Shown piece by piece: positions 5,381-54,117 of a stretch of DNA of 64,000 nt; within the stretch, counting starts at the first letter, position 1; each line of letters starts with the position of its first letter. The stretch spans positions 12,307 through 76,306 of the forward strand of contig JAGGSH010000011.1 of assembly GCA_021159185.1 (NCBI GenBank), read 5' to 3'. The position numbers were made by a program, and so were the translations under genes. Origin of the DNA: a bacterium (GTDB lineage Bacteria; Patescibacteriota; Minisyncoccia; Moranbacterales; UBA9337). The notes under the pieces were generated by a model. The model did not search any database, was not told the DNA's origin, and saw only the letters and a list, made by a program, of their open reading frames with translations.

Positions 5381-5475
5381 TTCTGCAAGTTGACTTGATA
5401 TAAAACCGTCCTGCCAATTCAGCGGGCGGTTTTTGTTTTACAGAAATTTATCCCACTGTATATTTTATATTTTTC

Positions 5476-5515
5476 TAGATACCATTAGATTGCGACCGCA
5501 ACCTAATGGTATCTA
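5476..5515. promoter_or_regulatory. 40-bp near-perfect palindrome upstream of feoAB (candidate metalloregulator operator)
   Basis: tagataccattag-attgcgaccgcaac-ctaatggtatcta. The 13-bp arms are perfectly complementary, and a TATAAT box lies at 5557-5562. Confidence 0.4.
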
Positions 5516-5569
5516 TTATTTGAGTAGGTTTTGCGGACAATAAAGTTAAAATGTTGTATAATGAGATTT

Positions 5570-5794
5570 ATGAAATTATCACTCCTGCAACTTCCCATAG
5601 GAAAGCAAGGCGTTATTGAAAAAATAAGCGCTGAGCAGGCTATTAGAGAAAGACTGCACAGCTTCGGTTTGATTGAAGGCGTAAAAATAGTTCCCGTAAA
5701 AAATACTCCGCTGGGCTGTCCCAGAATTTATCAGTGCCTAAATACTTTTATAGCCATACGAAACAGCACCGCCAAGCAAATATATTTAAAATAA
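5570..5794 (+). CDS. feoA: Ferrous iron transport protein A (FeoA, SH3-like)
   Basis: 75 aa, MKLSLLQLPIGKQGVIEKISAEQAIRERLHSFGLIEGVKIVPVKNTPLGCP, the typical FeoA pattern, immediately upstream of feoB. Confidence 0.65.
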   Translation: MKLSLLQLPIGKQGVIEKISAEQAIRERLHSFGLIEGVKIVPVKNTPLGCPRIYQCLNTFIAIRNSTAKQIYLK

Positions 5795-5796
5795 AA

Positions 5797-7608
5797 ATGA
5801 TGGGGAATAAAAACACAATCACCATCGGTTTAATTGGAAATCCTAACACAGGAAAAACTTCCCTTTTAAATTCTTTAACCGGTTCCAGTTTGCATGTGGG
5901 AAACTGGCCGGGAAAAACCGTGGAAAAAAAAGAAGGGGAAATTAACTTTCGGGACAAAAAAATAAAAGTGGTGGATCTGCCCGGAACTTATGACATCTCG
6001 CCTTACAGCGATGAAGAAAAGGTATCCAAAAATTTTATTACCCGCCCAAATTGCGATATTATTATTCAGATCGTTGATGTGAACGCATTAGAAAGAAATT
6101 TACTTTTAACTTTAGAGCTTCTAACTCTTAAAAAACCTATTATCTTGACTTTTAATTTCAACAAAGAAGCGGCTAAACGGGGCGTAAAAATCAATATCGC
6201 GAAAATAGAAAAAGTCTTAAATATTCCTATCGTTCAGATAGAGGCTAATACTGGAGAAAACAAAGAAGAACTACTGGAAGAAATTATTCGGGTTTCCAAA
6301 AGCGAATTTAAAGAGCCAAGTTATATTGAGGCGCTTTTAAAAAACAAAGAAGAAATAAGCCATCGCGAATCTATCCGGTTTATTAAAAACGAAATCGGAC
6401 ACTTCTACTCAACCGAAAAACAAAATCGTAAAACAGAAAAAATTGATTCTATTATCTTGAATAAATATACCGCCTTTCCTATTTTTCTGGCGGTTATGTT
6501 TTTGATGTTTAAAATATCATTTTCCATCTCAATTCCCATAGTTGATTTTATTGGGATTTCATTGGGACACCTCGGAGAATTAATCAGAGATTTAAATCTG
6601 CCGGACTTTCTCATTTCTTTCTTAACAGAAGGAATAGTGGGTGGCATGGGATCCGTAATCGCTTTCATACCCCTTATTTTCTTTCTTTTCATAGCTATTG
6701 CCGTGCTTGAAGATAGCGGATATTTATCCCGGACAGTAGTTTTAATTGACAGACTGTTTCAAACCTTTGGTGTTTCCGGGCGGACTTTTATTCCAATGAT
6801 TTTGGGATTTGGATGCAATGTTCCCGCCATTATGGCTACCAGAATAATACGCTACAAAAAAGAAAGGATGATTGCCATATTTACTAATTCTTTTATTTCA
6901 TGCAGCGCTAAATTACCTGCCTATGTTTTATTCGCTACCATTTTTTTCCCCGAAAATGCGGTAAATGTTATTATGTCCCTTTATCTTTTGGGAATTATCG
7001 TTGCTCTCGCGGCAAGTTTAATTCTTTCAAAACTTATTAAAAATAATCGGGAGAAAGCCCTGATTATTGAATTGCCGCCATACAGAATGCCCACAGTGGT
7101 TAATGTTGTGAAGCACGCGTGGCATCAAACAAGCTTATTTATTAAAAAGGCCGGCACTATAATTTTTGCCGCCGTTGTTATTATCTGGGTTTTAGCCAAT
7201 CTGCCGGCAGGAACTGAATATGGTTCTCAAGAAACTATTATAGGGATCGTGGGAGAAAAACTTTCTTGTATTTTTGAACCACTCGGTTTCGGGCATTGGA
7301 CATTCGCGGTAACTCTATTGTTCGGGGTGGCGGCCAAGGAAATTATTATCGGAACACTGGGAACGCTTCATGGTGTTTCCGGCGAGGGGCTTCTCTCCGT
7401 TATTCCTAATTGTATTACGCCACTGGGCGCTCTCTCCTTTTTGATTTTTGTTCTCTTGTATAGTCCTTGTGTCGCTACGATAGCCGTTATTAAAAAAGAA
7501 ACCGATAGCTGGAAATTTACAATAGCGCAAGTCGCGGCTACACTGATAATTGCTTGGATTGTCTCATTTCTATTTTATAATACCGGATTGCTGTTGGGAT
7601 TTAAATAG
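5797..7608 (+). CDS. feoB: Ferrous iron transporter B (FeoB), G-domain plus polytopic permease
   Basis: G1 motif GNPNTGKTSLLNSLTG, G domain, then nucleoside-recognition/Gate membrane domains. The internal ATG at 5797 was chosen over the upstream track start. Confidence 0.9.
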   Translation: MMGNKNTITIGLIGNPNTGKTSLLNSLTGSSLHVGNWPGKTVEKKEGEINFRDKKIKVVDLPGTYDISPYSDEEKVSKNFITRPNCDIIIQIVDVNALERNLLLTLELLTLKKPIILTFNFNKEAAKRGVKINIAKIEKVLNIPIVQIEANTGENKEELLEEIIRVSKSEFKEPSYIEALLKNKEEISHRESIRFIKNEIGHFYSTEKQNRKTEKIDSIILNKYTAFPIFLAVMFLMFKISFSISIPIVDFIGISLGHLGELIRDLNLPDFLISFLTEGIVGGMGSVIAFIPLIFFLFIAIAVLEDSGYLSRTVVLIDRLFQTFGVSGRTFIPMILGFGCNVPAIMATRIIRYKKERMIAIFTNSFISCSAKLPAYVLFATIFFPENAVNVIMSLYLLGIIVALAASLILSKLIKNNREKALIIELPPYRMPTVVNVVKHAWHQTSLFIKKAGTIIFAAVVIIWVLANLPAGTEYGSQETIIGIVGEKLSCIFEPLGFGHWTFAVTLLFGVAAKEIIIGTLGTLHGVSGEGLLSVIPNCITPLGALSFLIFVLLYSPCVATIAVIKKETDSWKFTIAQVAATLIIAWIVSFLFYNTGLLLGFK

Positions 7609-7657
7609 GTATTTTCCGCCAAAGGCGGATCAGCCTCAGGCTGAAAATAAATGTTTT

Positions 7658-8686
7658 ATGAAATCATTTGATGTAATAATTATCGGCGCCGGGCCGGCCG
7701 GATTGCAATGCGCTAAAATTTTGGCGGGAAGCCAAAAGAGTGTTTTGCTGATTGAAAAAAATAAAATAATCGGTCCCAAGGTGTGCGCGGGAGGCTTAAC
7801 CAGAAAATGTTTTAATTACCTTCAGCTTCCTGATTATTTAGTTGAGCGAACTTATCAAAAAATTATTTTCCAAACTCCTTTTAATAAGACGATTCTCCGA
7901 TTCGGAGAAAATTTTTTATACACGGTGGATAGAAAAAAGCTCGGGCAATGGCAATTGGAAAAATTGCGTTCCGCTGAAAATATTGAAATAAAAAACGGAT
8001 CAGCGGTTACGGAATTTAAAAAAAATTATATCATCGTTAACGGTTCGGAAAAAATAGGCTATAAATATTTGGTGGGCGCCGACGGGTCAAATTCAGCCGT
8101 TAGAAGATTCTTGGGCGTTAAAACGAAATTAACAGGCATTGCTTTTCAATATATTGTTCCAGGAAGAAAATTTAAAGATATTCAAATATTTTTAAATTCG
8201 CGACTGTTTGGCGCTTGGTACGCTTGGATTTTTCCTTATAAAAATTCTGCGTCCATTGGCTATGGCTGTTTTCCAATGGTTATTTCTCCCAAAAAAGCCA
8301 AAGAAAACTTTTTAAAATGGGCAAAATCCCAAAAAATAGATCTTTCGCAAGGTGAATATCAAGCAGCGGCTATAAATTGCGATTATCGCGGACATAAATT
8401 CGGCAATGTTTTTTTGGTCGGCGACGCGGCCGGACTAGTGTCCGGACTCACCGGAGAAGGAATATATCAAGCGCTTATTTCCGGAGAAGAAATCGCCAAG
8501 TTAATATTAAATTCATCTTACAAATGCGAGGAAATTAAAAAAGCGCGGGCGGAAATCAGGATACATAAAATATTGCTTGTAACAATTTATATCTTCGGTC
8601 CCCTGCGCTGGATGCTTTACGAAATAGTTGTCCTGGCAGTAAAAAATAAATTCCTGGCCAGAATATTGTTAAGAGTTTTAACTTGA
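7658..8686 (+). CDS. FAD-dependent oxidoreductase, geranylgeranyl reductase family
   Basis: Rossmann motif VIIIGAGPAGLQCAKIL and the GDAAG motif (LVGDAAGLVSGLTGEGI) near the C-terminus. Confidence 0.7.
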   Translation: MKSFDVIIIGAGPAGLQCAKILAGSQKSVLLIEKNKIIGPKVCAGGLTRKCFNYLQLPDYLVERTYQKIIFQTPFNKTILRFGENFLYTVDRKKLGQWQLEKLRSAENIEIKNGSAVTEFKKNYIIVNGSEKIGYKYLVGADGSNSAVRRFLGVKTKLTGIAFQYIVPGRKFKDIQIFLNSRLFGAWYAWIFPYKNSASIGYGCFPMVISPKKAKENFLKWAKSQKIDLSQGEYQAAAINCDYRGHKFGNVFLVGDAAGLVSGLTGEGIYQALISGEEIAKLILNSSYKCEEIKKARAEIRIHKILLVTIYIFGPLRWMLYEIVVLAVKNKFLARILLRVLT

Positions 8687-8698
8687 TTTTTGTAAATC

Positions 8699-8998
8699 TT
8701 ATTTTCTTATTATTCTTATCGCTTTTCCATTAATTAAAGCGTAGCTGATTTTTTTATAAGTTTTTGATAATATGCGCTGAAAAGTACTTTGGGATATATT
8801 CATTTTTTTCGCGCATTCATTTTGATCCAAGTCTTTAATGTTTTTCAATCTTAGCGTCTCTAACTCTTCAACGGAAATTTCTTCCACTTCCAAATCACGC
8901 AGAGGCATTCCCCGCGGTTTATAGTAATTTATTCTATGGCTAAATCTTATCCGCCTGCGTTTTCGCGGGCGGCCCAGTTCTATATTTTTTCCATTCAT
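8699..8998 (-). CDS. DUF134 (UPF0251) family putative DNA-binding protein
   Basis: GRPRKRRRIRF...YKPRG...EELETLRLKNIKDLDQNECAKKMNISQSTFQRIL matches the DUF134 consensus, including its sigma-70 region-4-like HTH. Confidence 0.7.
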   Translation of the reverse strand: MNGKNIELGRPRKRRRIRFSHRINYYKPRGMPLRDLEVEEISVEELETLRLKNIKDLDQNECAKKMNISQSTFQRILSKTYKKISYALINGKAIRIIRK

Positions 8999-9063
8999 AA
9001 CTTTATTTATTTAAAAAAGAAAAACGAGATGACTTATTTTAAAAACAAGCCATCCCGATTTTT

Positions 9064-9231
9064 TTATCTATTTCTTCCCATTCCTCTTCCATTACCTCTT
9101 TGCCCTAATCCTCTGCCACTGCCATCCCTTTTTCCAATTGGTCGCCTTTCACTTTTATCTCCGCAATCTCCCATTCCTCTGCCTGTTTTCGGTCCCTCGC
9201 CTTGAGGTCCGGTTTTGTCTCTATTAGGCAT
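9064..9231 (-). CDS. DUF5320-like small Gly/Arg-rich protein (55 aa; absent from the ORF track because it is under 60 aa)
   Basis: Manual translation of the minus strand gives MPNRDKTGPQGEGPKTGRGMGDCGDKSERRPIGKRDGSGRGLGQRGNGRGMGRNR. The MPxxDxTGPxGxGPxTGRGxGxC signature is that of the DUF5320 family, which typically sits beside DUF134 genes. The plus-strand 89-aa Pro-rich track ORF is its antisense. Confidence 0.5.
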   Translation of the reverse strand: MPNRDKTGPQGEGPKTGRGMGDCGDKSERRPIGKRDGSGRGLGQRGNGRGMGRNR

Positions 9232-9344
9232 ACATTTTTTCGCAAAGCATAAAATAAAATTTCGCGTTATTCTATGTTTCGCGCAGTTAATTGATTACAT
9301 TATGAGTATATACCCATAAGTATTTCTTGTCAAGAGCCATTTTT

Positions 9345-11714: not shown

Positions 11715-11912
11715 GTGTCATTCCTATGAAGCTTATCCTCAACTTGATCGGGGAACGGGAATCCAGAATGTCATTCCCGCGAAAGCGGGAATCCAGAACA
11801 TTAATAAAAAAAATTAGTAATTCTATTCTAGATTCCCGCCTACGCGGGAATGACATAAAAAAGTCGGGAATGACATAAAAAAGTCGGGAATGACAGAAAA
11901 AAGTCGGGAATG
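11715..11912. repeat. Cluster of family-1 MITE-like elements with tandem gtcgggaatgacataaaaaa units
   Basis: gtcattcc...gggaatccagaatgtcattcccgcgaaagcgggaatccaga...attcccgcctacgcgggaatgacat, followed by three copies of aaaaagtcgggaatgaca. Confidence 0.7.
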
Positions 11913-11953
11913 GCAAAAAGAAGAGATAAGAATGGCATTAAAGAATATCACAG

Positions 11954-13294
11954 ATGTTTATGAGCATCATTAACGCTAAAAATTTAATCTGGCTTTCAGC
12001 GCTTTCAACCCCATTGTATTTGGTGAAATTTTCTTTTTTTGGACTGCCGTTTAATATCCCGGAAGTTTTAATTATAACCGCTTTTGTATTTTGGCTCGCG
12101 GAAAATAGAAATTTTTCTTGGAAGATTTTTTATCGCCGGCATAAAAAATTTTTAGCGGGAATTTTTCTTATGCTTTTAGGTTTGGTGATTTCCGCTTTAA
12201 TCAATCCGAATCGTCTGGCGGAATGGGGAATTATAAAAAGCTGGCTTATAATTCCTTTAATTTTATCTTTTGTTATCGTGAATGAGATTAAAAATAAAAG
12301 GGATATAGAAAATATTTTTAAAGCCCTTTATTTTTCCGCGGCAGCAGTCAGTTTTATCGGATTGATTTATTTTTTTAAGGGCGATTTAACTTATGATTTC
12401 AGATTAAAAGCTTTTTTTCTGTCTCCTAATTATTTGGCTATGTTTTTGTCTCCTGCGGTTTTTATGGGAAATTATTTTATAGTTTCGCGGATTAAAAACG
12501 GCCTTCGGCATTTAATTGAGAAGCGCGTGGCAATTATTTTATTTATTTTATTTCTTTTAAGCCAAGCGGCTGTGTTAGCAGCGCTTTATCTCACTTATTC
12601 TTACGCCGCCTGGATAGCTGTAATTTTAAGTTTCATTATCGTTAATTTAATAATCAAAAATGGTGAAATATTTAAGAAAATTAAAATCGCTGCCGTTTTG
12701 TTAATTATCTTATCAATTATTTTAATAACTCAAGCGGGCAATTCTAAGTTCAATGAATTGTTTAATTGGCAAGCCGAATCGCGATCTTCTTTAGCTTCGC
12801 GAATTATGATTTGGCAATCGGCGGAAAAAATACTGGAAGATAATTTTTTATGGGGCATCGGGCCGGGAAATTTCCAGTCCGAATATTTGGAATACCAAAA
12901 ATACTTCCCGCCTTATTTGGAATGGGCGGTTCCCCAGCCGCACAATCTGTGTCTGGCTTTTTGGCTGCAGGGCGGGATATTGGGATTAGCCGGCTTTCTC
13001 TATTTGGTTTTTTATTGGATTAGAGAGATAGTAAAAATTGCTAAAAGCAAAATTTCTCCTGAGAATGATTTTAAAAAAACAGCGCCGGTGTTGCTGGGAA
13101 TTATGATTTACATTTTACTCCACGGGATAGCCGACACGCCTTATTGGAAAAACGATCTGGCGATTGTGTTCTGGACTGTTTTTTCTCTGGGAGCGGTAAG
13201 CATAAATTTTAACAAAAAAATTGGGTTTAAAACTCCCCCTTTGGAAAAGAGGGAAAGCGAGCGAAGCGAAGCAGGGGGATTTGAAAAGCGTTAA
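11954..13294 (+). CDS. O-antigen ligase / Wzy_C-family polytopic membrane protein (second paralog)
   Basis: More than 10 TM. WGIGPGNF and PHNLCLAFWLQGGILGLAGFLY are Wzy_C motifs. The last 20 or so codons (PPLEKRESERSEAGGFEKR) are encoded by a family-2 GC-rich repeat. Confidence 0.6.
   Translation: MFMSIINAKNLIWLSALSTPLYLVKFSFFGLPFNIPEVLIITAFVFWLAENRNFSWKIFYRRHKKFLAGIFLMLLGLVISALINPNRLAEWGIIKSWLIIPLILSFVIVNEIKNKRDIENIFKALYFSAAAVSFIGLIYFFKGDLTYDFRLKAFFLSPNYLAMFLSPAVFMGNYFIVSRIKNGLRHLIEKRVAIILFILFLLSQAAVLAALYLTYSYAAWIAVILSFIIVNLIIKNGEIFKKIKIAAVLLIILSIILITQAGNSKFNELFNWQAESRSSLASRIMIWQSAEKILEDNFLWGIGPGNFQSEYLEYQKYFPPYLEWAVPQPHNLCLAFWLQGGILGLAGFLYLVFYWIREIVKIAKSKISPENDFKKTAPVLLGIMIYILLHGIADTPYWKNDLAIVFWTVFSLGAVSINFNKKIGFKTPPLEKRESERSEAGGFEKR
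13232..13287. repeat. Family-2 GC-rich hairpin repeat (actccccctttggaaaagagggaaagcgagcgaagcgaagcagggggatttgaaaa)
   Basis: An identical 56-bp copy lies at 14171-14226 inside ksgA. Related copies are at 22741-22800, 22965-23012, 45241-45290 and 56700-56820. Confidence 0.7.
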
Positions 13295-13442
13295 ATAATT
13301 GAGTGTGCAGATTTTCAGCTCCAGCATAAATTAAGAAACCCCCTCTGTCCTTCGGACATCTCCCCCTTAGTAAAGGAGGAGAGGAAAGTAAATTATGAAT
13401 TATTAGCGGGCAAATTCGTGTTGATTGGCGATTTAAATCCTT

Positions 13443-14468
13443 ATGCCGGAAAAACTGGGACAAAATTTTTTAAAAGACAAAACAATCGCTGAGAGGATTG
13501 TTAAAGCGGCCGATTTAAAGCCGTCCGATTTTGTGATTGAAATCGGTCCGGGAAAAGGAATTCTTACAAAAAAACTGGCTGAACGCGCTGAAAAAGTAAT
13601 CGCCGTTGAAATTGACAGGAAGCTGGTTGATTATTTGCAGAGGAAATTCATAAATAAAAAAAATATTGAAATCATAAATAACAATATTTTAAAAATAAAT
13701 CTACTGGAATTACAAAACCTTTTTTCTGTCATTCCCGCGCAGGCGGGAATCCAGAATGTTAACACAAAGCCTAATAATTCTATCCTAGGTTCCCGCTCCC
13801 CGATCGGAGCCGAGGACAAGCTTCGCGGGAATGACATGGAACGCAAGAGTGACATAGAAGATAAATACTTACGCTATAAAGTTGTCGCCAATCTTCCCTA
13901 CTACATTACTTCTCCCGTTATCAGGATGTTTTTAGAATCTGAATATTCTCCGCGGGAAATGATTTTAATGGTCCAAAAAGAAGTGGCGGAAAGAATTACC
14001 GCCGCTCCGGGTAAAATGAGCCTTTTGTCCGTTTCCGTTCAGTATTACGCCCGTCCGGAAATTTTATTTTATGTTGATAAAAAATCTTTTAATCCGGTTC
14101 CTAAAGTGGACAGCGCCGTAATAAAAGCAGTAAGTAGAAAGTATCAAGTATTAAACGGGGGAGATAAAAAACTCCCCCTTTGGAAAAGAGGGAAAGCGAG
14201 CGAAGCGAAGCAGGGGGATTTGAAAATAAGCAAGAAAGGCAAGCTATCTGAAAATAGCAAAGCCAAGGAAAAGAGCAAAAAATTTTTCAAAATAGTTCGG
14301 GCGGGGTTTTGCGCCAGAAGAAAAACCTTAGTTAATAATTTGTCTAATAGTTTGCAATTGGACAAAAAAGAAGTTCAAGAAAAATTAAAAGCGGTTGGTC
14401 TTCCACTAACCGCGAGAGCGCAGGAGTTGAGTATTGAGGACTGGAAGAAATTAACAAAATTGTTTTAA
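13443..14468 (+). CDS. rsmA: 16S rRNA (adenine1518/1519-N6)-dimethyltransferase RsmA/KsgA with two in-frame repeat-derived insertions
   Basis: LGQNFLKD...VIEIGPGKGILTKKLAERAEKVIAVEID (SAM-binding) and VVANLPYYITSPVI are KsgA motifs. At 341 aa it is longer than the usual 260-290 aa, the excess coming from the two repeat elements. Confidence 0.85.
   Translation: MPEKLGQNFLKDKTIAERIVKAADLKPSDFVIEIGPGKGILTKKLAERAEKVIAVEIDRKLVDYLQRKFINKKNIEIINNNILKINLLELQNLFSVIPAQAGIQNVNTKPNNSILGSRSPIGAEDKLRGNDMERKSDIEDKYLRYKVVANLPYYITSPVIRMFLESEYSPREMILMVQKEVAERITAAPGKMSLLSVSVQYYARPEILFYVDKKSFNPVPKVDSAVIKAVSRKYQVLNGGDKKLPLWKRGKASEAKQGDLKISKKGKLSENSKAKEKSKKFFKIVRAGFCARRKTLVNNLSNSLQLDKKEVQEKLKAVGLPLTARAQELSIEDWKKLTKLF
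13728..13836. repeat. Family-1 MITE-like element inserted in-frame within ksgA
   Basis: gtcattcccgcgcaggcgggaatccagaatg...ggttcccgctccccgatcggagccgaggacaagcttcgcgggaatgacat, translated as SVIPAQAGIQNV...RSPIGAEDKLRGNDME inside the KsgA ORF. Confidence 0.7.
14172..14226. repeat. Family-2 GC-rich hairpin repeat inserted in-frame in the ksgA 3' region
   Basis: Identical to 13232-13287 and encodes PLWKRGKASEAKQGDLKI. Confidence 0.7.
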
Positions 14469-19009: not shown

Positions 19010-19188
19010 ATGTCATTCCGGAATTTTTTCTGAAACGCAGCGGAAGAAAAAATATCCGGAATCTAGAATTAATTTACAAAACTTTCTTTATGTCATTCCC
19101 GACTTGATTGGGAATCTTTCTTTTGTTTTACGCGTAGATTCCGGATAAATTTCTCTGTTGCTACTCCGAAATTTTCCGGAATGACAAC
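19010..19188. repeat. Family-1 MITE-like elements (two adjacent units plus the tacgcgtagattccggata...ttccggaatgaca unit)
   Basis: tgtcattccggaat..., tgtcattcccgacttgattgggaatc, and cgcgtagattccggataaatttctctgttgctactccgaaattttccggaatgaca. Confidence 0.7.
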
Positions 19189-19197: not shown

Positions 19198-20178
19198 CTA
19201 CGCTTTTTCCATCCCGGGAACTTTTTCTTCAGCAATTTTATTTTCCAATTCACTGCCAACCTCTTCAGATTTAAGAGCGGCGATTTCTTGAAAAAACAAA
19301 AGCCATGCTGTTTGGCGAAAAGCCGTTACGGCTGAGCTTAATAAGAAAGCGATTAAAATAAAAATTAGTATTCCCAAAACCGCCGTAATAAAAATTCCCA
19401 CCTTAGCTAGGATGAAATATAAAACTAATCCTATCAAAATAAACACAAGCGCCAATGGCAGAATTAGCATAATTATGGCAATGCCCGCTATTATTCCGAT
19501 AGCCAATAAAAGCAATGCCATAATCAGGCTGGGTAATGTATTTTTGCGGAAAACTTGATAAGCGTTTTCTATGGATGATTTAATCCCGGATTTAGCCAGC
19601 ACCAGGTAAAAATAAGCGTACTTTTTCAGAAATGAAACTAGGATTATTAAAGGAATGAAAATCAGAATTGCCAGAATTAATAACAGTGAAGCGGCAATGT
19701 AAGACTTTACATGAAATAGAAACACAACCGGAAGGAAAAGAACAATTAATATTCCAAACGTAAAAAATCCTAAAATCAGATCAATCGCCAAAAGTTTCCA
19801 AAAATATTTCCGTCCTTTCTTAAATCCAATGGAAAAATTTGACTTTCCGCCCTTTTTTATACTACTTACCGATTTGATTATAGCCGCCTGGCTGATTATT
19901 CTCAATACCAAAAGAGCGATTGCAATGGCAGTTAAAATAATCAATCCCGCCGCTATCCATTCAAAATGACCGTTTATAAAACTCAAAATCTCTTCTTTGC
20001 CCGCTTTCGTTTTTTCTTCCCATTTCCCATTATTGTTCATTGGCAACTGGAAATTAGAGCTCCCTCCTCCGCCTAAAGCGATAAAAAAACCAAACCACCA
20101 AAGATATTTATTGTTCCAAATAATTTGCCAAGCGTCTTTGATAATTGCCAAATATTTTATTTCTTTTTTCTTATTCAT
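19198..20178 (-). CDS. Hypothetical polytopic membrane protein (~6 TM, Gly-zipper-like segments)
   Basis: Start set to the internal MNKKKEIKYL at 20178, because the longer track ORF extends into the MITE at 20199-20284. No recognised family. Confidence 0.45.
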   Translation of the reverse strand: MNKKKEIKYLAIIKDAWQIIWNNKYLWWFGFFIALGGGGSSNFQLPMNNNGKWEEKTKAGKEEILSFINGHFEWIAAGLIILTAIAIALLVLRIISQAAIIKSVSSIKKGGKSNFSIGFKKGRKYFWKLLAIDLILGFFTFGILIVLFLPVVFLFHVKSYIAASLLLILAILIFIPLIILVSFLKKYAYFYLVLAKSGIKSSIENAYQVFRKNTLPSLIMALLLLAIGIIAGIAIIMLILPLALVFILIGLVLYFILAKVGIFITAVLGILIFILIAFLLSSAVTAFRQTAWLLFFQEIAALKSEEVGSELENKIAEEKVPGMEKA

Positions 20179-20198
20179 TTTTTCGCATTCTTCTAGTT

Positions 20199-20284
20199 TG
20201 TCATTCCCGACTTGATCGGGAATCCAGAATGAAATCACTGACTTCAAAAATTACTCTAGATTCCCGCCTGCGCGGGAATGACAT
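20199..20284. repeat. Family-1 MITE-like element (canonical ~85-bp unit)
   Basis: gtcattcccgacttgatcgggaatccagaatgaaatcactgacttcaaaaattactctagattcccgcctgcgcgggaatgacat. Confidence 0.75.
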
Positions 20285-22154: not shown

Positions 22155-22244
22155 TATATTATCTTAATTTTCTCTATATCCTCTCCTCCTTTACTAAGGG
22201 GGAGATGTCCGTAGGACAGAGGGGGTTTCTTAAATTTAAAAAAT

Positions 22245-23306
22245 CTACATTTTCACTACGCTCACTTTATCACCTTTCTTTTCTATTTTCAACCCTTTGA
22301 ATTCTATTCTTTGAATTTTACTTTTTTTACTTTCAATTATTTTAATAATTTCTTCAATGTGGCAGGTCTCAATGTCGGTTAAATCTGCTCTGATCTGAAA
22401 AATCATCTGGCGCAAAACTTGCCTTTGCATTGCCGGATGTAATTTTTGAAATTTTCCCGCGCTAAAAATAATTTTATCCGTCTTAGTCGCATTTATTTGT
22501 TTAATCATTCGCTTCCCATTCGCGGACAAGCAATCATAATCGTCAGCGACAATCAGCGACATATTAGCTAAAGTTTTTTTAATATTAGGATTGTAATTTT
22601 TTTCCAGATAAGGAATTAACCGATGGCGGATTTTATTGCGGGAGATCTTAATATCTTTATTGGTAATGTCAGTTTGATATTTTAATTTATTTTCTTTAAG
22701 ATATTCTAAAATTTCTTTTCGGCTTGTATTTAACAACGGACGAATAATAATATTCTCCCCCTCCCCTTTGGGGAGAGGGCTGGGGTGAGGGGTTTTCGGT
22801 CTCATAACTGCCAACCCTTGCAATCCTGCTCCTCGCAAAACCCGCATCAAAACCGTTTCGGCTTGGTCGTCCCGATTATGCGCCACCGCGATTAAATTAT
22901 ATTTTTTTCTTTTCCTAATTTTCTCAAAAAAATCATACCGAATCTCCCGCAACCAATTCTCCAAATTCTCCCCCTTTGGAAAAGGGGGGTTAGGGGGGAT
23001 TTGAAAAACCTTCGCATTCTCGTAAATTTTATTTTTCGCAATACTTAAAACGCTAACCCCCAACTCGTACTTTCCTGCCAACTCTCTCACAAACTCCTCA
23101 TCCCTATCCGAATCCTTTCCCCGCAAACCGTAATTCACATGGGCAATGTATAATTTAAAATTATATTTAGGCGCCAGCTTTACCAAAATATCCAAAAGAC
23201 AGGCGCTGTCCGGCCCGCCCGAAACACCGACAATAATCCTTGAGCCTTCCTCCCAAAGCCCATACCGCCCGGAAAAACTTTGAATTTTTTTAACCAAACT
23301 TTTCAT
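22245..23306 (-). CDS. tilS: tRNA(Ile)-lysidine synthetase TilS with two in-frame repeat-derived insertions
   Basis: PP-loop IIVGVSGGPDSACLLDIL and HNRDDQAETVLMRVLRGAGLQGLAVMRP. The inserted segments IPPNPPFPKGENLENW and KTPHPSPLPKGEGENII are encoded by family-2 repeats at 22965-23012 and 22741-22800. Confidence 0.85.
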   Translation of the reverse strand: MKSLVKKIQSFSGRYGLWEEGSRIIVGVSGGPDSACLLDILVKLAPKYNFKLYIAHVNYGLRGKDSDRDEEFVRELAGKYELGVSVLSIAKNKIYENAKVFQIPPNPPFPKGENLENWLREIRYDFFEKIRKRKKYNLIAVAHNRDDQAETVLMRVLRGAGLQGLAVMRPKTPHPSPLPKGEGENIIIRPLLNTSRKEILEYLKENKLKYQTDITNKDIKISRNKIRHRLIPYLEKNYNPNIKKTLANMSLIVADDYDCLSANGKRMIKQINATKTDKIIFSAGKFQKLHPAMQRQVLRQMIFQIRADLTDIETCHIEEIIKIIESKKSKIQRIEFKGLKIEKKGDKVSVVKM

Positions 23307-24640: not shown

Positions 24641-26158
24641 TTACTTAGCGCTTTTTTTATTTTTTTCTGGCTTTGCTAGATCTGGCGTAGCCAGACTTTT
24701 CTTTTCTCCTGCCTTTTTCTCTATGACTTTCTTTACTTTTTTCTTTTCCTCTTTCTTTCTTGCTTTCTTACTTACTGCCTGTTGCTTATCGCTTACTTCT
24801 TTATGCTTACTTTCTGCTTCTTTCTTCTTACTGCTCTTATCTTTAACCAGCGCCAATCCCATCCTATGATTTTTCGGCTCTATAGAAAGAATTTTCCATT
24901 GGTAGGATTCGCCTTCTTTTATCACATCGTCCATTCTTTTGCCGGGATACATTTCCTGAAACTCGCTCACATGCGCCAGTCCGTGTATGTTTTTGTCCAG
25001 ATATACAAAAACTCCGAAGCGGTTAATTTTATCCACTTTGCCTTTCACAACATTGCCTGTCTCATATTTCTTTTCAATATTTTCCCATGGGTCTTTTTCC
25101 AGCGCTTTTAAAGAAAGAGAAACGCGCATGTTATTAATTCCAATAATCTGGGCCTTAACTATGTCTCCTTTTTTTATAACCTCTCTTGGGTCATTAATTA
25201 ATTGCCATGCTAATTCTGAAATATGCACCAGCCCCTCCAGTTTATCATCTTCTTTGCCTGAATCTTTTTTGGATGGAGGAAAAAATTTCACAAAAGCTCC
25301 GAAGTCTACTACTCCGCTCACTTCGCCCTCAACGATATCCCCCGCTTTCATTTTGGCGACAGTTTCTTTCTCTTCACTGCTCATAACCGCTTTCTCGCTA
25401 ACAATCAGTTTTTCCTCATCCCTGTCAGCGCTGATGATTTTTACTTTGAGCTCGCGGCCGATTAAATTTTTAAGCATTTCCAAAATTCTGCTCTTGCTCC
25501 CGTCTTCCACGCGGGGATAATTTTTGCTGGATAACTGGGACACGGGCAAAAAGCTTGATATTCCGTTAATTTCAACTATTAATCCTCCTCTGTTAGCGTC
25601 AAGCACTTTCGTAATAATTGTTTTTTGGGCGTCTCTTTTGTATTCTATGTCTTCCCAAGCTTTTTCATAAGAAGCTTCTCTAACGGAAAGTTCCATATAA
25701 CCGCTTTCATCTCCTAAACTAGTTAAAGTCGCGCTGACCGTATCGCCTTCTTTTATTTTCCCGTCAATATTCAATCCGTCTTTCATTTCTTTTCCTAAAA
25801 CTATTCCTGTTCCCAATGGGCCTAAATCAAGCAAGATATAGCTAGAGGAAATTTCAATCACCTTTCCTTCCAAAACATCTCCCACTTCCGGAATTTCTAT
25901 AGGATTCTCTTTCAGTAATTCTTCCATAGAAAGTTCATTTTTCCCTTTCTTGCCTGCCTGCCGGCGAGGCAGGCTTTTTTCAGACGAGCTTTTTTTTACT
26001 TTTACTTTTACTTTTACTTTCTTTTTCTTTATGCTTGTTTCTTGCTTCTTTTTCCTTCCCAGTTCTCGCTTCTCGCTTACTTCTTTTTTCTTCCCGCTTA
26101 TTTCTATTTTATCCACCTCTTCCGCCAGTTTGTCTAAAATGTTTTTTTTGCCAGCCAT
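24641..26158 (-). CDS. rpsA: 30S ribosomal protein S1-like, multiple S1 domains with Lys-rich terminal extensions
   Basis: Four or more S1 repeats (GDVLEGKVIEIS..., GDIVEGEVSGVVDFGAFV, GDIVKAQIIGIN..., GNVVKGKVDKINRFGVFV). The N-terminal region contains an in-frame 27-bp GC hairpin repeat. Confidence 0.8.
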   Translation of the reverse strand: MAGKKNILDKLAEEVDKIEISGKKKEVSEKRELGRKKKQETSIKKKKVKVKVKVKKSSSEKSLPRRQAGKKGKNELSMEELLKENPIEIPEVGDVLEGKVIEISSSYILLDLGPLGTGIVLGKEMKDGLNIDGKIKEGDTVSATLTSLGDESGYMELSVREASYEKAWEDIEYKRDAQKTIITKVLDANRGGLIVEINGISSFLPVSQLSSKNYPRVEDGSKSRILEMLKNLIGRELKVKIISADRDEEKLIVSEKAVMSSEEKETVAKMKAGDIVEGEVSGVVDFGAFVKFFPPSKKDSGKEDDKLEGLVHISELAWQLINDPREVIKKGDIVKAQIIGINNMRVSLSLKALEKDPWENIEKKYETGNVVKGKVDKINRFGVFVYLDKNIHGLAHVSEFQEMYPGKRMDDVIKEGESYQWKILSIEPKNHRMGLALVKDKSSKKKEAESKHKEVSDKQQAVSKKARKKEEKKKVKKVIEKKAGEKKSLATPDLAKPEKNKKSAK

Positions 26159-34524: not shown

Positions 34525-34545
34525 AAGGGAAAATATTAACATTTT

Positions 34546-45178: not shown

Positions 45179-45207
45179 ATATAGTAGAAACTAAAAACGC
45201 GATCAAT

Positions 45208-46276: not shown

Positions 46277-46292
46277 AATAAAAAATAAAAAT

Positions 46293-51819: not shown

Positions 51820-54117
51820 TTATATTCTTTCCAGCGGAGCGTAGGTGGCGGAAAGTTTCTTAATTCCGGTTTTCATAAAAGCTATGGTAATAATATCATC
51901 TTGCGTGGAAATAACCACTCCTTCGCCAAAATCCGGATGGCGGACGCGCTGGCCATCGCTGTAACTCGTAACTCGGGATGGTTTGAATTCTTTTAGGTCA
52001 TGGTTATTTTGATTTGAGATTTGTTTGGGATTTGAAGTTTGGGATTTAGAATCTGTTTGGAAATTGGAAATTGGAAATTGGAAATTCCGCACAAGGTGCG
52101 GCGGTATATCATCCAAAAACCGCGATGGCGGGTTGGCTTGGGTTGATCCGAAAATTACGCGCATTTCCGCGTGGAGAAGACAGACTTTTTCTTTGGCGCG
52201 GGTAATTCCCACATACATCAGCCTTCTCTCTTCCTCCATTTCATCCGCGTTTAACATACTGCGGGAATGCGGCAGAATTCCTTCTTCTAGCCCCGCGATA
52301 AAAACAATGGGGAATTCCAAACCTTTAGCGCTGTGCAGGGTCATTAAATGAACTGTGTCTTGATTTTGGTCAATATTATCTGTGTCCGCCACCAGCGCCA
52401 CTTCTTCCAAAAATAATTCCAAAGACATATTGGCGTTTTCGCCCCGATGTTTTTCAGCTACGCTCAAAAGTTCCCGCACATTTTCTATTCGCGTCTCTCC
52501 TTCAATTCCCATTTTCTCCAAGCTAGTTTCGTAACCGCTGCCTTTAAAAATTTTCTCAATCAAATTAGCTAATCCGGCTCTGTCTTTAAAATCTCTCATT
52601 TGAAAAATAAAATCACAGAACTGCTTAATTGCTTTAATTTTAGCTTCTTTTAATTCTGAATTTTGAGGGCTGATTTTAGCGCTTGCGTCCAGTAAGTTCA
52701 GATCGTTTTCTTTGGCGAAAGCCGCCCATTTTGCTAAAGTTTTTTTTCCAATGCCCCGCCGCGGTTCGTTAATAATCCGTTCCAAAGAAATATAATCGTT
52801 TCCGTTTTGAATAACGCGGAGGTAAGCGACAATATCTTTAATTTCTTTTCTTTGATAAAATTTCAGCCCGCCGATAATGCGATAGGGGATAGATTCTTTC
52901 AGGAAAATTTCCTCTATAATTCTTGATTGGGCGTTGGTGCGGTATAAAACCGCGAAATCGGAATAATTATATTTCTTATTTTTATCGCTAACTTTATTTT
53001 TAATTTCCTCGGCAATAAATTCAGCCTCGTCTTTTTCGTCGTTAGCCTCATAAACAGCCACGGGATGCCCTTTTTTATTTTCCGTCCACACTTTCTTGTC
53101 CTTGCGGTTTACATTTTTGGAAATTATTTCATGGGCCGCGTCTAAAATAATTTGAGTAGAGCGATAATTTTGTTCCAATTTAATAACCTTGGCGCCGGGA
53201 TAATCTTTTTCAAAACTTAAAATATTTTTAATATCCGCTTGTCTAAACATATAAATTGATTGCCAGTCATCACCCACGACGCAGAGATTGCGGTGTTTTT
53301 GGGAAAGCAGTTTTACCAAAAGGTATTGGGCGTGGTTGGTATCCTGGTATTCGTCCACTAAAATATAGCGGAATAAATTTTGGTATTTTGCCAGCACTTC
53401 GGGAAATTCCTGGAATATTTTCACCGCAAGCCGTATTAAATCGTCAAAATCCAGAATATTATTTTTTTTAAGCTCTTCTTGGTAAGCGTTGTAAACTTTA
53501 GCAACAGTTTCTTCGTAAAATCCTTCCGCTTGCCGGGAAAACGCTTCCTCGTCAATAAATTTATTTTTAGCTTCGCTGATAGCGGTTAAAAATGACGCGG
53601 GATTAAATTGGTCTTTACTGATACTCAATTCTTTAAAAATTCTTTTTACTAAAGCTAATTGGTCTTGAGCGTCAAAAATATTAAAAGATTTTTTGTATCC
53701 CAGTTTGTCTATTTCCCGCCGCAAAATTCTGGCGCAAACGCTGTGGAAAGTGCCAACAGTAGGTAGTTTGTAGCTTGTAGTTTGTATCTTAGGATTTGAA
53801 AATTGAGAATTGGAAATTTTACTTGTTGCTTGCCTGCCTGCCGGCGAGGCAGGCTGCTTACTTCTTGCTTCTAACAATTTGGCAATTCTTTCCTTCATTT
53901 CTTGGGCGGCTTTGTTGGTAAAAGTTACCGCCAGAATATTAAGCGGATTTATTTTCTTCTTTTTTATTAAATAAGCCACCCGATGGGTGAGTGTTCTGGT
54001 TTTTCCCGATCCGGCTCCGGCGATAATCAAAACGGGGCCCTCTGTGGCCTTGACCGCTTCTTGTTGCGCGGAATTGAGATTTTTGAGCAGATCGTTCATA
54101 ATTTTATGATATATCAT
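51820..54117 (-). CDS. pcrA: ATP-dependent DNA helicase PcrA/UvrD family, with a repeat-derived internal insertion and a low-complexity C-terminal tail
   Basis: IIAGAGSGKTRTLTHRVAYLI (Walker A), DEYQDTN, and the other helicase motifs. The insertion QPASPAGRQATSK is encoded by the 27-bp GC hairpin also found in rpsA. The C-terminal FQFPISNFQ comes from the ggaaattggaaatt tandem repeat at 52040-52085. Confidence 0.9.
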   Translation of the reverse strand: MIYHKIMNDLLKNLNSAQQEAVKATEGPVLIIAGAGSGKTRTLTHRVAYLIKKKKINPLNILAVTFTNKAAQEMKERIAKLLEARSKQPASPAGRQATSKISNSQFSNPKIQTTSYKLPTVGTFHSVCARILRREIDKLGYKKSFNIFDAQDQLALVKRIFKELSISKDQFNPASFLTAISEAKNKFIDEEAFSRQAEGFYEETVAKVYNAYQEELKKNNILDFDDLIRLAVKIFQEFPEVLAKYQNLFRYILVDEYQDTNHAQYLLVKLLSQKHRNLCVVGDDWQSIYMFRQADIKNILSFEKDYPGAKVIKLEQNYRSTQIILDAAHEIISKNVNRKDKKVWTENKKGHPVAVYEANDEKDEAEFIAEEIKNKVSDKNKKYNYSDFAVLYRTNAQSRIIEEIFLKESIPYRIIGGLKFYQRKEIKDIVAYLRVIQNGNDYISLERIINEPRRGIGKKTLAKWAAFAKENDLNLLDASAKISPQNSELKEAKIKAIKQFCDFIFQMRDFKDRAGLANLIEKIFKGSGYETSLEKMGIEGETRIENVRELLSVAEKHRGENANMSLELFLEEVALVADTDNIDQNQDTVHLMTLHSAKGLEFPIVFIAGLEEGILPHSRSMLNADEMEEERRLMYVGITRAKEKVCLLHAEMRVIFGSTQANPPSRFLDDIPPHLVRNFQFPISNFQTDSKSQTSNPKQISNQNNHDLKEFKPSRVTSYSDGQRVRHPDFGEGVVISTQDDIITIAFMKTGIKKLSATYAPLERI

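What the first reader, a model, noticed from the sequence alone, without database searches (positions are those of the whole stretch)
13443..14468. Dispersed repeat elements inserted in-frame inside essential genes (ksgA, tilS, rpsA, pcrA, O-antigen ligase)
Each essential ORF stays open across its insertion. KsgA carries a family-1 MITE (13728-13836, read as SVIPAQAGIQNV...RSPIGAEDKLRGNDME) and a family-2 hairpin (14172-14226, PLWKRGKASEAKQGDLKI), both read through in-frame. TilS carries two family-2 copies (22741-22800 and 22965-23012, giving PHPSPLPKGEGENII and IPPNPPFPKGENLENW). A 27-bp hairpin, cttgcctgcctgccggcgaggcaggct, occurs in rpsA (25953-25979) and in pcrA (53832-53858) in different frames, giving LPRRQAGK and PASPAGRQA. 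This suggests selection for frame-preserving insertions, tolerated as surface loops, in a genome saturated with these elements.
Basis: seen in the sequence. Interest (0 to 1): 0.65.

Follow-up and report, generated by a model that had tools for sequence, protein, structure and literature searches.

The report
Palindromic repeats inserted in-frame in genes
In this small-genome candidate-phyla-radiation bacterium, short selfish palindromic DNA repeats have landed inside housekeeping genes without breaking them, adding floppy loops to the proteins; this is known from Rickettsia, but one 21-base repeat also occurs unchanged across many phyla.

Summary
KsgA, TilS, S1 and PcrA are intact genes that read through dispersed GC-rich palindromic repeats.

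Close orthologues from independent metagenomes give filled and empty sites:
- KsgA forms a series of 259, 295, 310, 332, 341 and 347 aa.
- TilS has a clean 36-bp insertion.
- Clean 21-bp and 24-bp insertions sit nested inside other repeats.

The inserted segments fall where solved homologues have short loops. They are the only low-confidence parts of an AlphaFold model of KsgA.

Family 1 is a head-to-head dimer of the known CGTC/TGTC-tagged REP hairpin (Neisseria dRS3/NTS, Rickettsia RPE-6). There are 8 matches to the NTS consensus against 0 expected. About 10 of its 11 copies are intergenic.

The small elements are 18, 21, 24 and 36 bp long. They are stop-free in five or six frames, so they preserve reading frames by construction.

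The phenomenon is the Rickettsia "selfish DNA in coding genes" kind, here in Patescibacteria.

The unexpected part is the 21-mer CCTGCCTCGCCGGCAGGCAGG:
- It occurs exactly in at least 120 stretches of species-representative genomes from seven or more phyla.
- Its flanks are unrelated.
- About 40% of copies lie inside long ORFs.
- It often sits inside other repeats.

How any of these elements move is unknown.

The parts
13443..14468 (+). ksgA/rsmA ORF (341 aa), intact, carrying two insertion blocks
   Evidence: Pfam RrnaAD 2e-56. Against B. subtilis KsgA it carries about 44 extra aa between residues 87 and 145 and about 36 extra aa between 232 and 277. Orthologue series of 259-347 aa.
13727..13837 (+). 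Family-1 element in ksgA: head-to-head dimer of TGTC-tagged REP hairpins, 87 bp plus a nested 24-bp element
   Evidence: The left hairpin matches the NTS consensus with 1 mismatch. It folds at -47.5 kcal/mol, z = -4.1. It is absent from L001 and present in short form in L003 and L004. It is open in 2 of 6 frames.
13797..13820 (+). Nested 24-bp palindromic element (SPIGAEDK) in the loop of the right REP hairpin
   Evidence: Clean 24-bp presence/absence: present in the window, L005 and L006, absent in L003 and L004. A second copy lies at 46537-46560 in the loop of another REP hairpin. Open in all six frames.
14133..14273 (+). ksgA site-2 insertion block (+37 aa) containing the 59-nt family-2 element at 14168-14226
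   Evidence: Absent from L001, L003 and L005; present in the window, L004 and L006. The 59-nt core is 100% identical to 13229-13287. pLDDT below 50 for residues 241-265.
13229..13287 (+). Family-2 copy forming the last 23 codons and the stop of the Wzy_C gene (11954-13294)
   Evidence: The L001 and L004 orthologues end earlier with a compact spacer.
13328..13385 (.). Intergenic family-2-like element (mate at 22179-22236, 97% complementary)
   Evidence: Inverted repeat I5. Absent from the L001 and L004 spacer. L003 has a family-1 element at the same spacer instead.
22755..22790 (-). 36-bp family-2 hairpin in tilS (PHPSPLPKGEGE)
   Evidence: Clean 36-bp gap in the L001 tilS. Extra relative to the G. 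kaustophilus TilS structure 3a2k. Folds with a 10-bp stem.
22965..23012 (-). Older family-2 copy in tilS (IPPNPPFPKGENLENW)
   Evidence: Present in both the window and L001. Extra relative to 3a2k. No empty site found.
25953..25973 (-). 21-nt palindrome (family 3) in the N-terminal Lys-rich tail of rpsA, read as LPRRQAG
   Evidence: Exact 21-mer. Conserved in the 87%-identical orthologue L007. Lies before the first S1 domain.
53761..53871 (-). pcrA loop insertion (about +30 aa) holding the 21-mer (53833-53853, PASPAGR) and a heptamer/14-mer repeat (53763-53790, IQTTSYK)
   Evidence: The window has 36 aa where G. stearothermophilus PcrA has 6. Orthologues carry different repeats or none in the same loop. 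Tandem repeat detected.
20199..20284 (.). Typical intergenic family-1 element (86 bp). Others lie at 119-261, 11769-11856, 19091-19187, 34441-34526, 46518-46610, 51630-51715, 54130-54205, 60969-61053 and 63368-63453
   Evidence: Repeat families D1, D2, D4 and D8 and their inverted pairs. Motif scan with gene context. Sequences and stop counts.

Best explanation
The window comes from a Patescibacteria (CPR) genome; its named homologues are Moranbacteria-like. It carries several families of non-autonomous, GC-rich palindromic repeats.

**The elements**
- Family 1 is an 86-bp miniature element made of two inverted TGTC-tagged REP hairpins. These hairpins belong to the CGTC-1 / dRS3 / NTS / RPE-6 class.
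- Families 2 and 3 and the 24-mer are very small hairpin elements of 18-59 bp.

**How they end up inside genes**
- Copies arise repeatedly, often inside other repeats or hairpin loops.
- Purifying selection then removes those that break genes.
- What remains inside genes are copies that keep the frame, contain no stop codon, and fall in permissive surface loops, interdomain linkers or terminal tails. There they are translated as disordered extra peptide.
- The smallest elements are 7, 8 or 12 codons long and open in nearly every frame. They pass this filter automatically and are therefore common in genes.
- The 86-bp element has stops in most frames and survives almost only between genes.

**Shown versus inferred**
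- Shown: insertion polymorphism, frame and stop properties, loop location, and repeat identity.
- Inferred: that the peptides are translated and functionally neutral, and how the elements move. Plausible routes are single-strand hairpin-specific nucleases or transposases acting in trans, or copying by recombination or template switching.
For: **Filled and empty sites in independent assemblies**
- KsgA series of 259-347 aa with clean nested 21-bp and 24-bp indels.
- TilS 36-bp insertion.
- A second independent 21-bp filled/empty pair and a 24-bp pair in pcrA of two relatives.
- Four of six internal indel sites of 4 aa or more across 12 syntenic gene pairs are repeat-derived.

**Permissive positions**
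- Gaps against solved KsgA, TilS and PcrA structures.
- The AlphaFold2 model has pLDDT below 50 exactly at the two KsgA insertions and above 90 elsewhere.
- The same loops vary from 11 to 68 aa and from 13 to 54 aa among 120 KsgA homologues and are filled with translations of various palindromic repeats. The PcrA loop behaves the same way.

**Filter by frame**
- Element lengths are 18, 21, 24 and 36 bp, open in 5-6 of 6 frames.
- Family-1 copies are open in 0-2 of 6 frames, and about 10 of 11 are intergenic in a window that is 84% coding.

**Identity of family 1**
- 8 matches to the NTS consensus against 0 expected.
- The literature equates CGTC-1 REPs with dRS3 and RPE-6, and documents intragenic copies (PMC3733652; PMC11893778).
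Against: - No mobilising enzyme (GIY-YIG Ssn, RAYT or other transposase) was found in the window or in 20 kb of flanks.
- KsgA sites 1 and 2 are not clean insertions relative to the empty allele. Flanking codons are also replaced, so insertion boundaries and any target-site duplication cannot be read there.
- Site states are mosaic among alleles, so recombination between alleles cannot be told apart from repeated insertion or loss.
- Translation of the inserted peptides, and their neutrality, are not demonstrated.
- The skew in reading frames used by the 21-mer (chi-square p = 2e-6) shows selection on the encoded peptide. That is compatible with, but does not prove, mere tolerance.
Confidence: 0.8

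Rival explanations
1. The extra segments are ancestral, lineage-specific loops of these proteins that merely resemble repeats. They are not insertions.
For: The older TilS copy and the S1 hairpin are present in every close orthologue examined. A family-1 variant sits at the same KsgA loop in a 71%-identical orthologue (P0010).
Against: - Orthologues 81-93% identical lack the segments.
- The same sequences occur between genes and in unrelated genes at 97-100% identity.
- More distant homologues and solved structures have short loops at these positions.
Confidence: 0.05
2. The genes are pseudogenes, or the insertions are assembly or sequencing artefacts.
For: The window is from a metagenome-assembled genome, and repeats are a known source of misassembly.
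Against: - The same insertions, with intact ORFs, recur in independent JGI and ENA assemblies from different samples.
- Catalytic motifs are invariant.
- The fold is confidently predicted around the insertions.
- The 21-mer is also present in genomes of cultured isolates.
Confidence: 0.02
3. The segments are removed after transcription or translation, as mini-introns or inteins, so the proteins are normal.
For: Patescibacteria are rich in introns. A relative's PcrA carries a true intein at another site (P0126).
Against: - The elements are 18-111 bp, far below group I or II intron or intein size.
- No Rfam family matches them.
- No intein domain is found in the window proteins.
- The strict absence of stops and the multiple-of-3 lengths would be unnecessary if they were spliced out.
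Confidence: 0.03
4. The intragenic copies are retained because they do something. Possibilities are targets of a single-strand nuclease that modulates recombination or DNA uptake (as NTS-SsnA does in Neisseria), RNA hairpins affecting translation or mRNA stability, or useful flexible linkers.
For: - NTS hairpins have a demonstrated role with SsnA in Neisseria (PMC11893778).
- The 21-mer sequence is identical across phyla.
- Its reading-frame use in ORFs is strongly skewed towards Pro/Ala/Ser/Gly-rich peptides.
- The S1 and older TilS copies are conserved between relatives.
Against: - Presence or absence is polymorphic among close relatives with no sign of compensation.
- Different elements occupy the same loop in different lineages.
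- No ssn gene was found nearby.
- The frame skew is equally explained by purifying selection against Cys/Arg-rich peptides.
Confidence: 0.1

Closest known systems
Rickettsia palindromic elements (RPE; Ogata et al. 2000 Science 290:347; 2002 Genome Res 12:808, as summarised in PMC10969869)
   Same: Palindromic repeats inserted in-frame in unrelated housekeeping genes, translated through, and located where they are compatible with the fold. RPE-6 and RPE-4 are CGTC-tagged REPs (PMC3733652), the same hairpin class as family 1 here. The host also has a reduced genome and a host-dependent lifestyle.
   Different: - The phylum is different: Patescibacteria rather than Alphaproteobacteria.
- The long element is rarely intragenic here (1 of about 11 copies), whereas nearly half of RPEs are.
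- Most intragenic copies here are much smaller (18-59 bp) than RPE-1 (about 150 bp).
- Nested insertions and closely related filled/empty alleles are documented here.
- Sequence similarity to RPE-1 was not tested.
CGTC-tagged REPs / Neisseria dRS3 and NTS / Ssn-related motifs (Di Nocera 2013, PMC3733652; Nat Commun 2025, PMC11893778)
   Same: - The family-1 terminal hairpin is TGTCATTCCCGCG-MAV-GCGGGAATCYAG. It matches 27 of 28 positions of the NTS consensus.
- It has an 8-bp stem beginning with AT, a 4-nt loop and a CYAG tail, and is organised as head-to-head dimers.
- The TGTC variant of the tag is described in the literature.
   Different: - NTS copies are only about 2% intragenic in N. meningitidis.
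- The class was reported in five phyla, without mention of Patescibacteria.
- The partner gene ssnA (GIY-YIG, cd10448) was not found in the 84 kb available here.
Small dispersed repeats (SDR) of heterocystous cyanobacteria (Elhai et al. 2008 Genome Res 18:1484). The paper is not held in the library; it is cited from memory and through PMC4390886 and PMC3116915.
   Same: Very small (21-27 nt) imperfect palindromes that behave as mobile insertions. They insert precisely into other repeats, for example SDR5 inside HIP1 (PMC4390886). The 21-mer and 24-mer here likewise sit inside other palindromes and heptamer arrays.
   Different: SDRs are reported within one cyanobacterial clade. The 21-mer here is identical across seven or more phyla. 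About 40% of its copies lie in long ORFs. Its 7-codon length and its being open in all frames are noted here.
Intragenic ERIC/BOX/Correia/QMITE elements (PMC10969869; PMC5896051)
   Same: Miniature inverted-repeat elements that occasionally create in-frame fusions or alter the ends of ORFs.
   Different: Those are 100-400 bp with defined terminal repeats and target duplications. Here no target duplication is discernible, and the commonest intragenic units are 18-36 bp.

Membership tests
CGTC-tagged REP, family CGTC-1 (= dRS3/NTS) | Unpaired 5' CGTC (or TGTC/CCTC) tag, followed by an 8-bp stem starting with AT, a 4-nt loop, and a short CCA-like tail | tested here: met
   The copies read TGTC-ATTCCCGC-GAAG-GCGGGAAT-CYAG. 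There are 8 matches to CGTCATTCCCGCGMAVGCGGGAATCYRG at up to 2 mismatches against 0 expected. Family definition from PMC3733652.
CGTC-tagged REP, family CGTC-1 (= dRS3/NTS) | Predominantly organised as head-to-head dimers | tested here: met
   The 85-88-bp units have inverted hairpins at both ends.
NTS-Ssn system | A GIY-YIG cd10448 (ssnA) gene in the same genome, typically flanked by the motif | tested here: inconclusive
   No GIY-YIG motif, tblastn hit or Pfam hit in the window or in 20 kb of flanks. Only about 84 kb of the genome could be examined.
Rickettsia palindromic elements (functional class) | Palindromic repeat inserted in-frame in conserved protein genes, absent from orthologues, at positions compatible with the fold | tested here: met
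Rickettsia palindromic elements (functional class) | The inserted peptide is expressed in the mature protein | not testable with these tools
   This needs proteomics or RNA-seq.
MITE (miniature inverted-repeat transposable element) | Terminal inverted repeats, small size, no coding capacity, multiple dispersed copies | tested here: met
   Family 1 has about 11 copies of 85-143 bp with roughly 29-nt inverted termini.
MITE (miniature inverted-repeat transposable element) | Target-site duplication, and a related autonomous element encoding the transposase | tested here: inconclusive
   No duplication is visible at the clean 21-, 24- and 36-bp insertions. The family-1 boundaries in ksgA are blurred. 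No transposase was found.
Small dispersed repeats (very small mobile repeats) | A 21-27-nt imperfect palindrome found as a precise insertion within otherwise conserved sequence, often within other repeats | tested here: met
   - Two independent clean 21-bp filled/empty pairs.
- 16% of copies lie in a tandem-repeat context against 0.2% of control positions.
- There is a 2.3-fold excess of strongly hairpin-forming flanks.
- The family definition is recalled from Elhai 2008, which could not be read here.
Intein / self-splicing intron | Intein splicing domains, or a group I/II intron RNA structure | tested here: not met
   No such Pfam domain in the window proteins. No Rfam hit apart from tRNAs. 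The elements are 18-111 bp.

The most novel reading that the evidence does not exclude
The 21-nt element CCTGCCT-C-GCCGGC-AGGCAGG would be a previously undescribed, pan-bacterial "coding-compatible" micro-mobile element.

- It is a 7-codon palindrome with no stop in any of its six frames.
- It moves without a target duplication, preferentially into other hairpins and heptamer arrays.
- It has spread across at least seven phyla, including Bacteroidota isolates, many Patescibacteria classes, Omnitrophota, Elusimicrobia, Planctomycetota, Ignavibacteria and Acidobacteriota.
- Its sequence is held constant by recognition by a still unidentified, widely distributed enzyme.
- It would be a general source of short in-frame loop insertions in bacterial proteins.
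Probability: 0.35. Interest if true: 0.75.

Novelty: new member of a known kind. Interest (0 to 1): 0.5.

Why it matters
**For CPR genome biology**
- It extends the Rickettsia paradigm of selfish DNA inside protein-coding genes to Patescibacteria. These genomes are usually described as streamlined.
- It explains many of the odd low-complexity loops seen in their housekeeping proteins, such as "VIPAQAGIQ", "PLPKGEG", "PASPAGR" and "SNFQFPIS".
- Those loops are repeat translations. They are not lineage-specific functional domains.
- This matters for annotation, for alignment and phylogenomics of CPR marker proteins, and for structure prediction.

**For the biology of small repeats**
- The closely related filled and empty alleles form a natural series for studying how tiny palindromes insert.
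- The cross-phylum 21-mer gives a concrete, searchable handle on the open question of what mobilises REP-like and smaller elements.

Tried and rejected
1. **Search for an Ssn/GIY-YIG gene.** I used a regex, tblastn with an E. coli YhbQ sequence recalled from memory, and Pfam on about 45 ORFs and on 20 kb of flanks. Nothing was found. One 8-residue hit at 772-795 was chance.
3. **The search of protein representatives with the same peptide.** It returned only six hits. All are spurious ORFs across tandem REP arrays of other bacteria, so they say nothing about intragenic spread.
4. **A GC-island scan as an unbiased element finder.** It was too unspecific, giving 134 islands that were mostly ordinary coding sequence.
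5. **A metagenome scan for S1 relatives.** It gave only one close orthologue, and that one also carries the hairpin. No empty site for rpsA was obtained.
6. **A simple exact-stem test of hairpin-apex targeting by the 21-mer.** It was not significant. An MFE-based test showed only tail enrichment: 17% against 7% at -12 kcal/mol or below, with Mann-Whitney not significant.
7. **Clustering of ORFs around 120 copies of the 21-mer.** It found no shared neighbouring gene that could be a mobilising enzyme.
8. **Test of whether 20-nt perfect-palindrome variants avoid ORFs.** The trend was in the expected direction, 3 of 15 (20- and 22-nt variants pooled; 3 of 13 for the 20-mers alone) against 61 of 144, but not significant (p = 0.11), and the sample is biased.
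9. **Elhai 2008.** The paper could not be read because it is not held.
Full report
**1. What is in the window**

The window has 37.8% G+C and is about 84% coding. The named relatives of its proteins are Candidatus Moranbacteria, Parcubacteria or Patescibacteria MAGs. The identical KsgA and PcrA proteins sit on a 141.7-kb NCBI contig labelled only "bacterium".

- KsgA/RsmA, 13443-14468.
- TilS, 22245-23306 on the minus strand.
- Ribosomal protein S1, 24641-26158 on the minus strand.
- PcrA/UvrD, 51820-54117 on the minus strand.
- A Wzy_C O-antigen-ligase-like protein, 11954-13294.

**2. The repeats are real**

The repeat finder returned at least 60 direct-repeat families and 349 inverted pairs. 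Four kinds matter here.

- **Family 1.**
  - It is an 85-88-bp unit bounded by inverted hairpins TGTCATTCCCGCG(A/C)A(G/A)GCGGGAATC(C/T)AG. Variant left arms are TGTCATTCCCGACTTGATCGGGAATC and TGTCATTCCGGAA.
  - There are about 11 copies in the window.
  - Only the ksgA copy lies deep in a gene. Two others overlap the predicted 5' ends of ORFs (19198-20247 and pcrA), where the true start is probably downstream.
- **Family 2.** These are C-run/G-run hairpins such as CTCCCCCTTTGGAAAAGAGGG. The copies at 13229-13287 and 14168-14226 are 100% identical over 59 nt.
- **Family 3.** This is the 21-mer CCTGCCTGCCGGCGAGGCAGG, at 25953-25973 and 53833-53853.
- **A 24-mer.** TCCCCGATCGGAGCCGAGGACAAG sits at 13797-13820 and, in reverse orientation, at 46537-46560. 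In both places it lies in the loop of a family-1 hairpin.

The element-bearing stretches of ksgA (MITE), tilS (22735-22805), rpsA and pcrA fold significantly better than shuffled sequence; the two family-2 stretches at 14165-14230 and 22960-23015 do not. Rfam has no family for any of them.

**3. They are insertions**

*KsgA, protein level.* Close KsgA orthologues from independent JGI and ENA assemblies form a length series of 259, 295, 310, 332/334, 341 (the window) and 347 aa. They are 81-93% identical outside the variable blocks.

*KsgA, DNA level:*
- L001 lacks both blocks.
- L003 has only the short 87-bp family-1 element.
- L005 adds a clean 21-bp insertion (the family-3 palindrome) and a clean 24-bp insertion, both inside that element.
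- L004 has the short element plus the site-2 block.
- The window and L006 have further combinations.

The two large blocks are not clean relative to L001. Neighbouring codons differ as well. At site 1, L001 carries a heptamer-type repeat (KLQTTSCK) that resembles the state in more distant homologues. Boundaries and any target duplication therefore cannot be read for family 1. The mosaic of states implies either recurrent events or recombination between alleles.

*Other genes:*
- In tilS, one family-2 hairpin is a clean 36-bp insertion absent from L001. The other copy is shared.
- In pcrA of two relatives (L149 versus L150), the canonical 21-mer is a clean 21-bp insertion inside a family-2 element. 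A further clean 24-bp insertion sits at the apex of another family-2 hairpin.
- Across 12 syntenic gene pairs between the window and L001, four of the six internal indel sites of 4 aa or more are repeat-derived.
- The Wzy_C-ksgA spacer is compact in L001 and L004. It holds family-2 elements in the window and a family-1 element in L003.
- A paralogous Wzy_C gene carries a TGTCATTCCGGAA-type element in L003 and L004, where the gene is still called as an intact Wzy_C ORF, but not in the window or L001.

For the S1 hairpin I found no empty site. The only close orthologue (L007, 87% identity) also has it.

**4. Where they sit in the proteins**

| Protein | Reference structure | Position | Extra residues |
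|---|---|---|---|
| KsgA site 1 | B. subtilis 6ifs | between the strand ending the SAM-binding half and the NLPY motif | about 44 |
| KsgA site 2 | B. subtilis 6ifs | linker to the C-terminal helical domain | about 36 |
| TilS | G. kaustophilus 3a2k | both copies coincide with alignment gaps | not quantified |
| PcrA | G. stearothermophilus 1pjr | between the motif Ia helix and the TFHS motif | 36 aa replace 6 |

- The S1 copy is in the Lys-rich N-terminal tail, before the first S1 domain.
- An AlphaFold2 model of the window KsgA, built on 120 homologues, has mean pLDDT 80.7. The conserved fold scores above 90. Apart from the first five residues, the only segments below 50 are residues 98-141 and 241-265, which are the two insertions.
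- The same two KsgA loops range from 11 to 68 aa and from 13 to 54 aa among the 120 homologues. The long versions read like translated palindromic repeats of several unrelated families: CHSER...LGMT, PHPxPLPKGEGD, SNFQFPISN, VETRQCLVST.
- The PcrA loop is likewise short in more distant Moranbacteria. In the window's close relatives it is filled with different repeats in each lineage.

These are permissive "hot loops".

**5. Why frames are preserved**

- The small elements are 18, 21, 24 and 36 bp long. They are stop-free in six, six, six and five of six frames respectively.
- They cannot shift a frame and almost never introduce a stop, in either orientation and in any phase.
- The 86-bp family-1 unit is not a multiple of three. 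It has stops in most frames, with 0-2 open frames per copy.
- The ksgA copy is 87 bp and is read in one of its two open frames.
- This fits the distribution. Family 1 is about 10 of 11 intergenic even though 84% of the window is coding.
- Family-2 copies are about half genic. The genic ones are in Wzy_C, KsgA, TilS (two copies) and LspA in the flank L147.
- Both family-3 copies are genic.
- Heptamer tandem arrays inside genes likewise span 30 or 33 nt (43369-43401 in the CCA-adding enzyme and 52057-52086 in PcrA).

**6. What family 1 is**

- Its terminal hairpin matches the 28-nt Neisseria Transformation Sequence consensus CGTCATTCCCGCGMAVGCGGGAATCYRG. There are eight matches at up to 2 mismatches, seven of them differing only by C to T at the first base. 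None is expected in shuffles.
- Di Nocera et al. (PMC3733652) define CGTC-tagged REPs.
  - The tag is often TGTC, the stem is 8 bp beginning with AT, the loop is 4 nt, and the tail is CCA-like. The repeats are mostly head-to-head dimers.
  - They equate CGTC-1 with Neisseria dRS3 and with Rickettsia conorii RPE-6.
  - They also list intragenic REPs, many of them in DNA repair genes including UvrD/Rep helicases.
- The 2025 Ssn paper (PMC11893778) reports four relevant points.
  - NTS is the single-strand target of the GIY-YIG nuclease SsnA.
  - NTS-ssnA-NTS resembles an insertion sequence.
  - Genomes rich in the motif are enriched in symbionts, including Rickettsia and Wolbachia.
  - Only 2% of NTS copies are intragenic in N. 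meningitidis.
- Family 1 is therefore a member of a known repeat class, and its intragenic copy is an RPE-like case.
- I found no ssn, RAYT or other transposase gene in the window or in 20 kb of flanks. That covers only about 84 kb of the genome.
- No paper in the library combines "miniature inverted-repeat" with any CPR or Patescibacteria term. This is not proof that the phenomenon is unreported.

**7. The 21-mer**

*Distribution*
- The records come from many groups:
  - Bacteroidota, including the cultured isolates Arenibacter sp. P308M17, Zunongwangia pacifica, Aequorivita capsosiphonis DSM 23843, Gelidibacter salicanalis, Dokdonia sinensis, and Flavivirga and Maribacter strains.
  - More than a dozen Patescibacteria classes.
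  - Omnitrophota, Elusimicrobia, Planctomycetota, Ignavibacteria and Acidobacteriota.
  - MAGs labelled Gammaproteobacteria.
- About 0.3 exact matches would be expected by chance in 596 Gb (my calculation, assuming uniform base composition).
- Only three IMG/VR viral contigs hold it.
- No paper in the library contains the sequence.

*Structure and context*
- Flanks are unrelated. Column consensus outside the 21 bases is below 50%.
- The unit is 7 + 1 + 6 + 7 bases: CCTGCCT-C-GCCGGC-AGGCAGG.
- 16% of copies lie inside short-period tandem arrays, typically heptamers, against 0.2% of control positions.
- Strongly hairpin-forming flanks are 2.3-fold enriched. Visible examples include insertion into flavobacterial GCTTTCGCGAAAGC palindromes, family-2-like hairpins and REP hairpins.

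*Coding context*
- 48 of 125 copies sit inside open stretches of at least 200 codons, with at least 30 codons on each side.
- The copies are depleted from long open stretches relative to random positions (50% against 74%, p = 4e-8), but far from excluded.
- Frame use is skewed towards PASPAGR (17 copies) and LPAGEAG (18). The Arg/Cys-rich frames have 2-4 copies each (chi-square 34.25, p = 2e-6).
- 20-nt perfect-palindrome variants exist. They are less often in ORFs, but not significantly so.

*Comparison and limits*
- No neighbouring gene is shared among the loci.
- This resembles the "very small mobile repeated elements" (SDRs) of cyanobacteria, which insert precisely into other repeats (Elhai 2008, from memory; PMC4390886). 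The taxonomic range here is far wider.
- The exact-match search necessarily selects identical copies. The degree of conservation within genomes is therefore not established.

**8. Verdict**

- The phenomenon is a new member of a known kind: intragenic REP/RPE-type selfish palindromes, here in Patescibacteria with unusually clear filled/empty allele series and nested insertions.
- How any of the elements move remains unknown.
- The cross-phylum, frame-neutral 21-mer is the part most worth following up.

Noticed in passing
window 25953-25973 and 53833-53853; loci L024-L143: The exact 21-mer CCTGCCTCGCCGGCAGGCAGG occurs in at least 120 stretches of species-representative genomes from seven or more phyla, including cultured Bacteroidota. 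Flanks are unrelated. Copies often lie inside heptamer arrays or other hairpins, and about 40% lie within long ORFs. No paper in the library contains the sequence.
   Followed up: partly
window 43369-43401, 52057-52086, 53763-53790: Heptamer tandem repeats (TGCTTGC x4.7, TTGGAAA x4.3 and a 14-mer x2) lie in-frame inside the CCA-adding enzyme and PcrA. They give peptides such as AASSKQQAASK, NFQFPISNFQ and IQTTSYK. The two heptamer arrays span 33 and 30 nt. Similar heptamer-derived peptides fill loops in many Parcubacteria KsgA and PcrA homologues.
   Followed up: partly
window 45161-46734: Six copies of the perfect palindrome (A/T)TGTTCCACGTGGAACA(A/T)T surround a TrmB-family HTH regulator gene (45437-46276), next to a tyrosine recombinase gene (46886-47704). 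DnaA-box-like TTATCCACA sequences form an inverted pair at 43920-43961 and 46761-46802. They could be operator sites or the ends of a mobile region.
   Followed up: no
window 5409-9339: A 3.9-kb segment encoding FeoB, an FAD-dependent oxidoreductase and a DUF134 protein is absent from the syntenic contigs L001 and L003. It is a strain-specific indel.
   Followed up: partly
protein P0126 (same contig as L001), aligned in A6 columns 344-707: The PcrA orthologue of the closely related genome carries a roughly 360-aa intein (Pfam PF14890), inserted after the DDWQ motif. The window's PcrA has no intein.
   Followed up: no
window 54320-63340 and L147: A cluster of AbiEii toxin, tyrosine recombinase, LysM-CHAP hydrolase, TrbL, PrgI, TraC-like and VirB4-like genes is bracketed by family-1 elements at 54130-54205, 60969-61053 and 63368-63453. 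It looks like a type IV secretion or integrative-element region.
   Followed up: no
window 11845-11923: A tandem array of four 20-bp units (CGGGAATGACATAAAAAAGT) is made of the outer half of the family-1 hairpin. It sits directly downstream of a complete element at 11769-11856.
   Followed up: no
window 29930-30030 (within ORF 29597-30088, minus strand; no Pfam hit): A 101-nt GC-rich, strongly folding stretch (MFE -39.6 kcal/mol) lies in a region with few convincing ORFs (27.3-30.4 kb). There is no Rfam match. It may be an unannotated structured RNA or another repeat.
   Followed up: no
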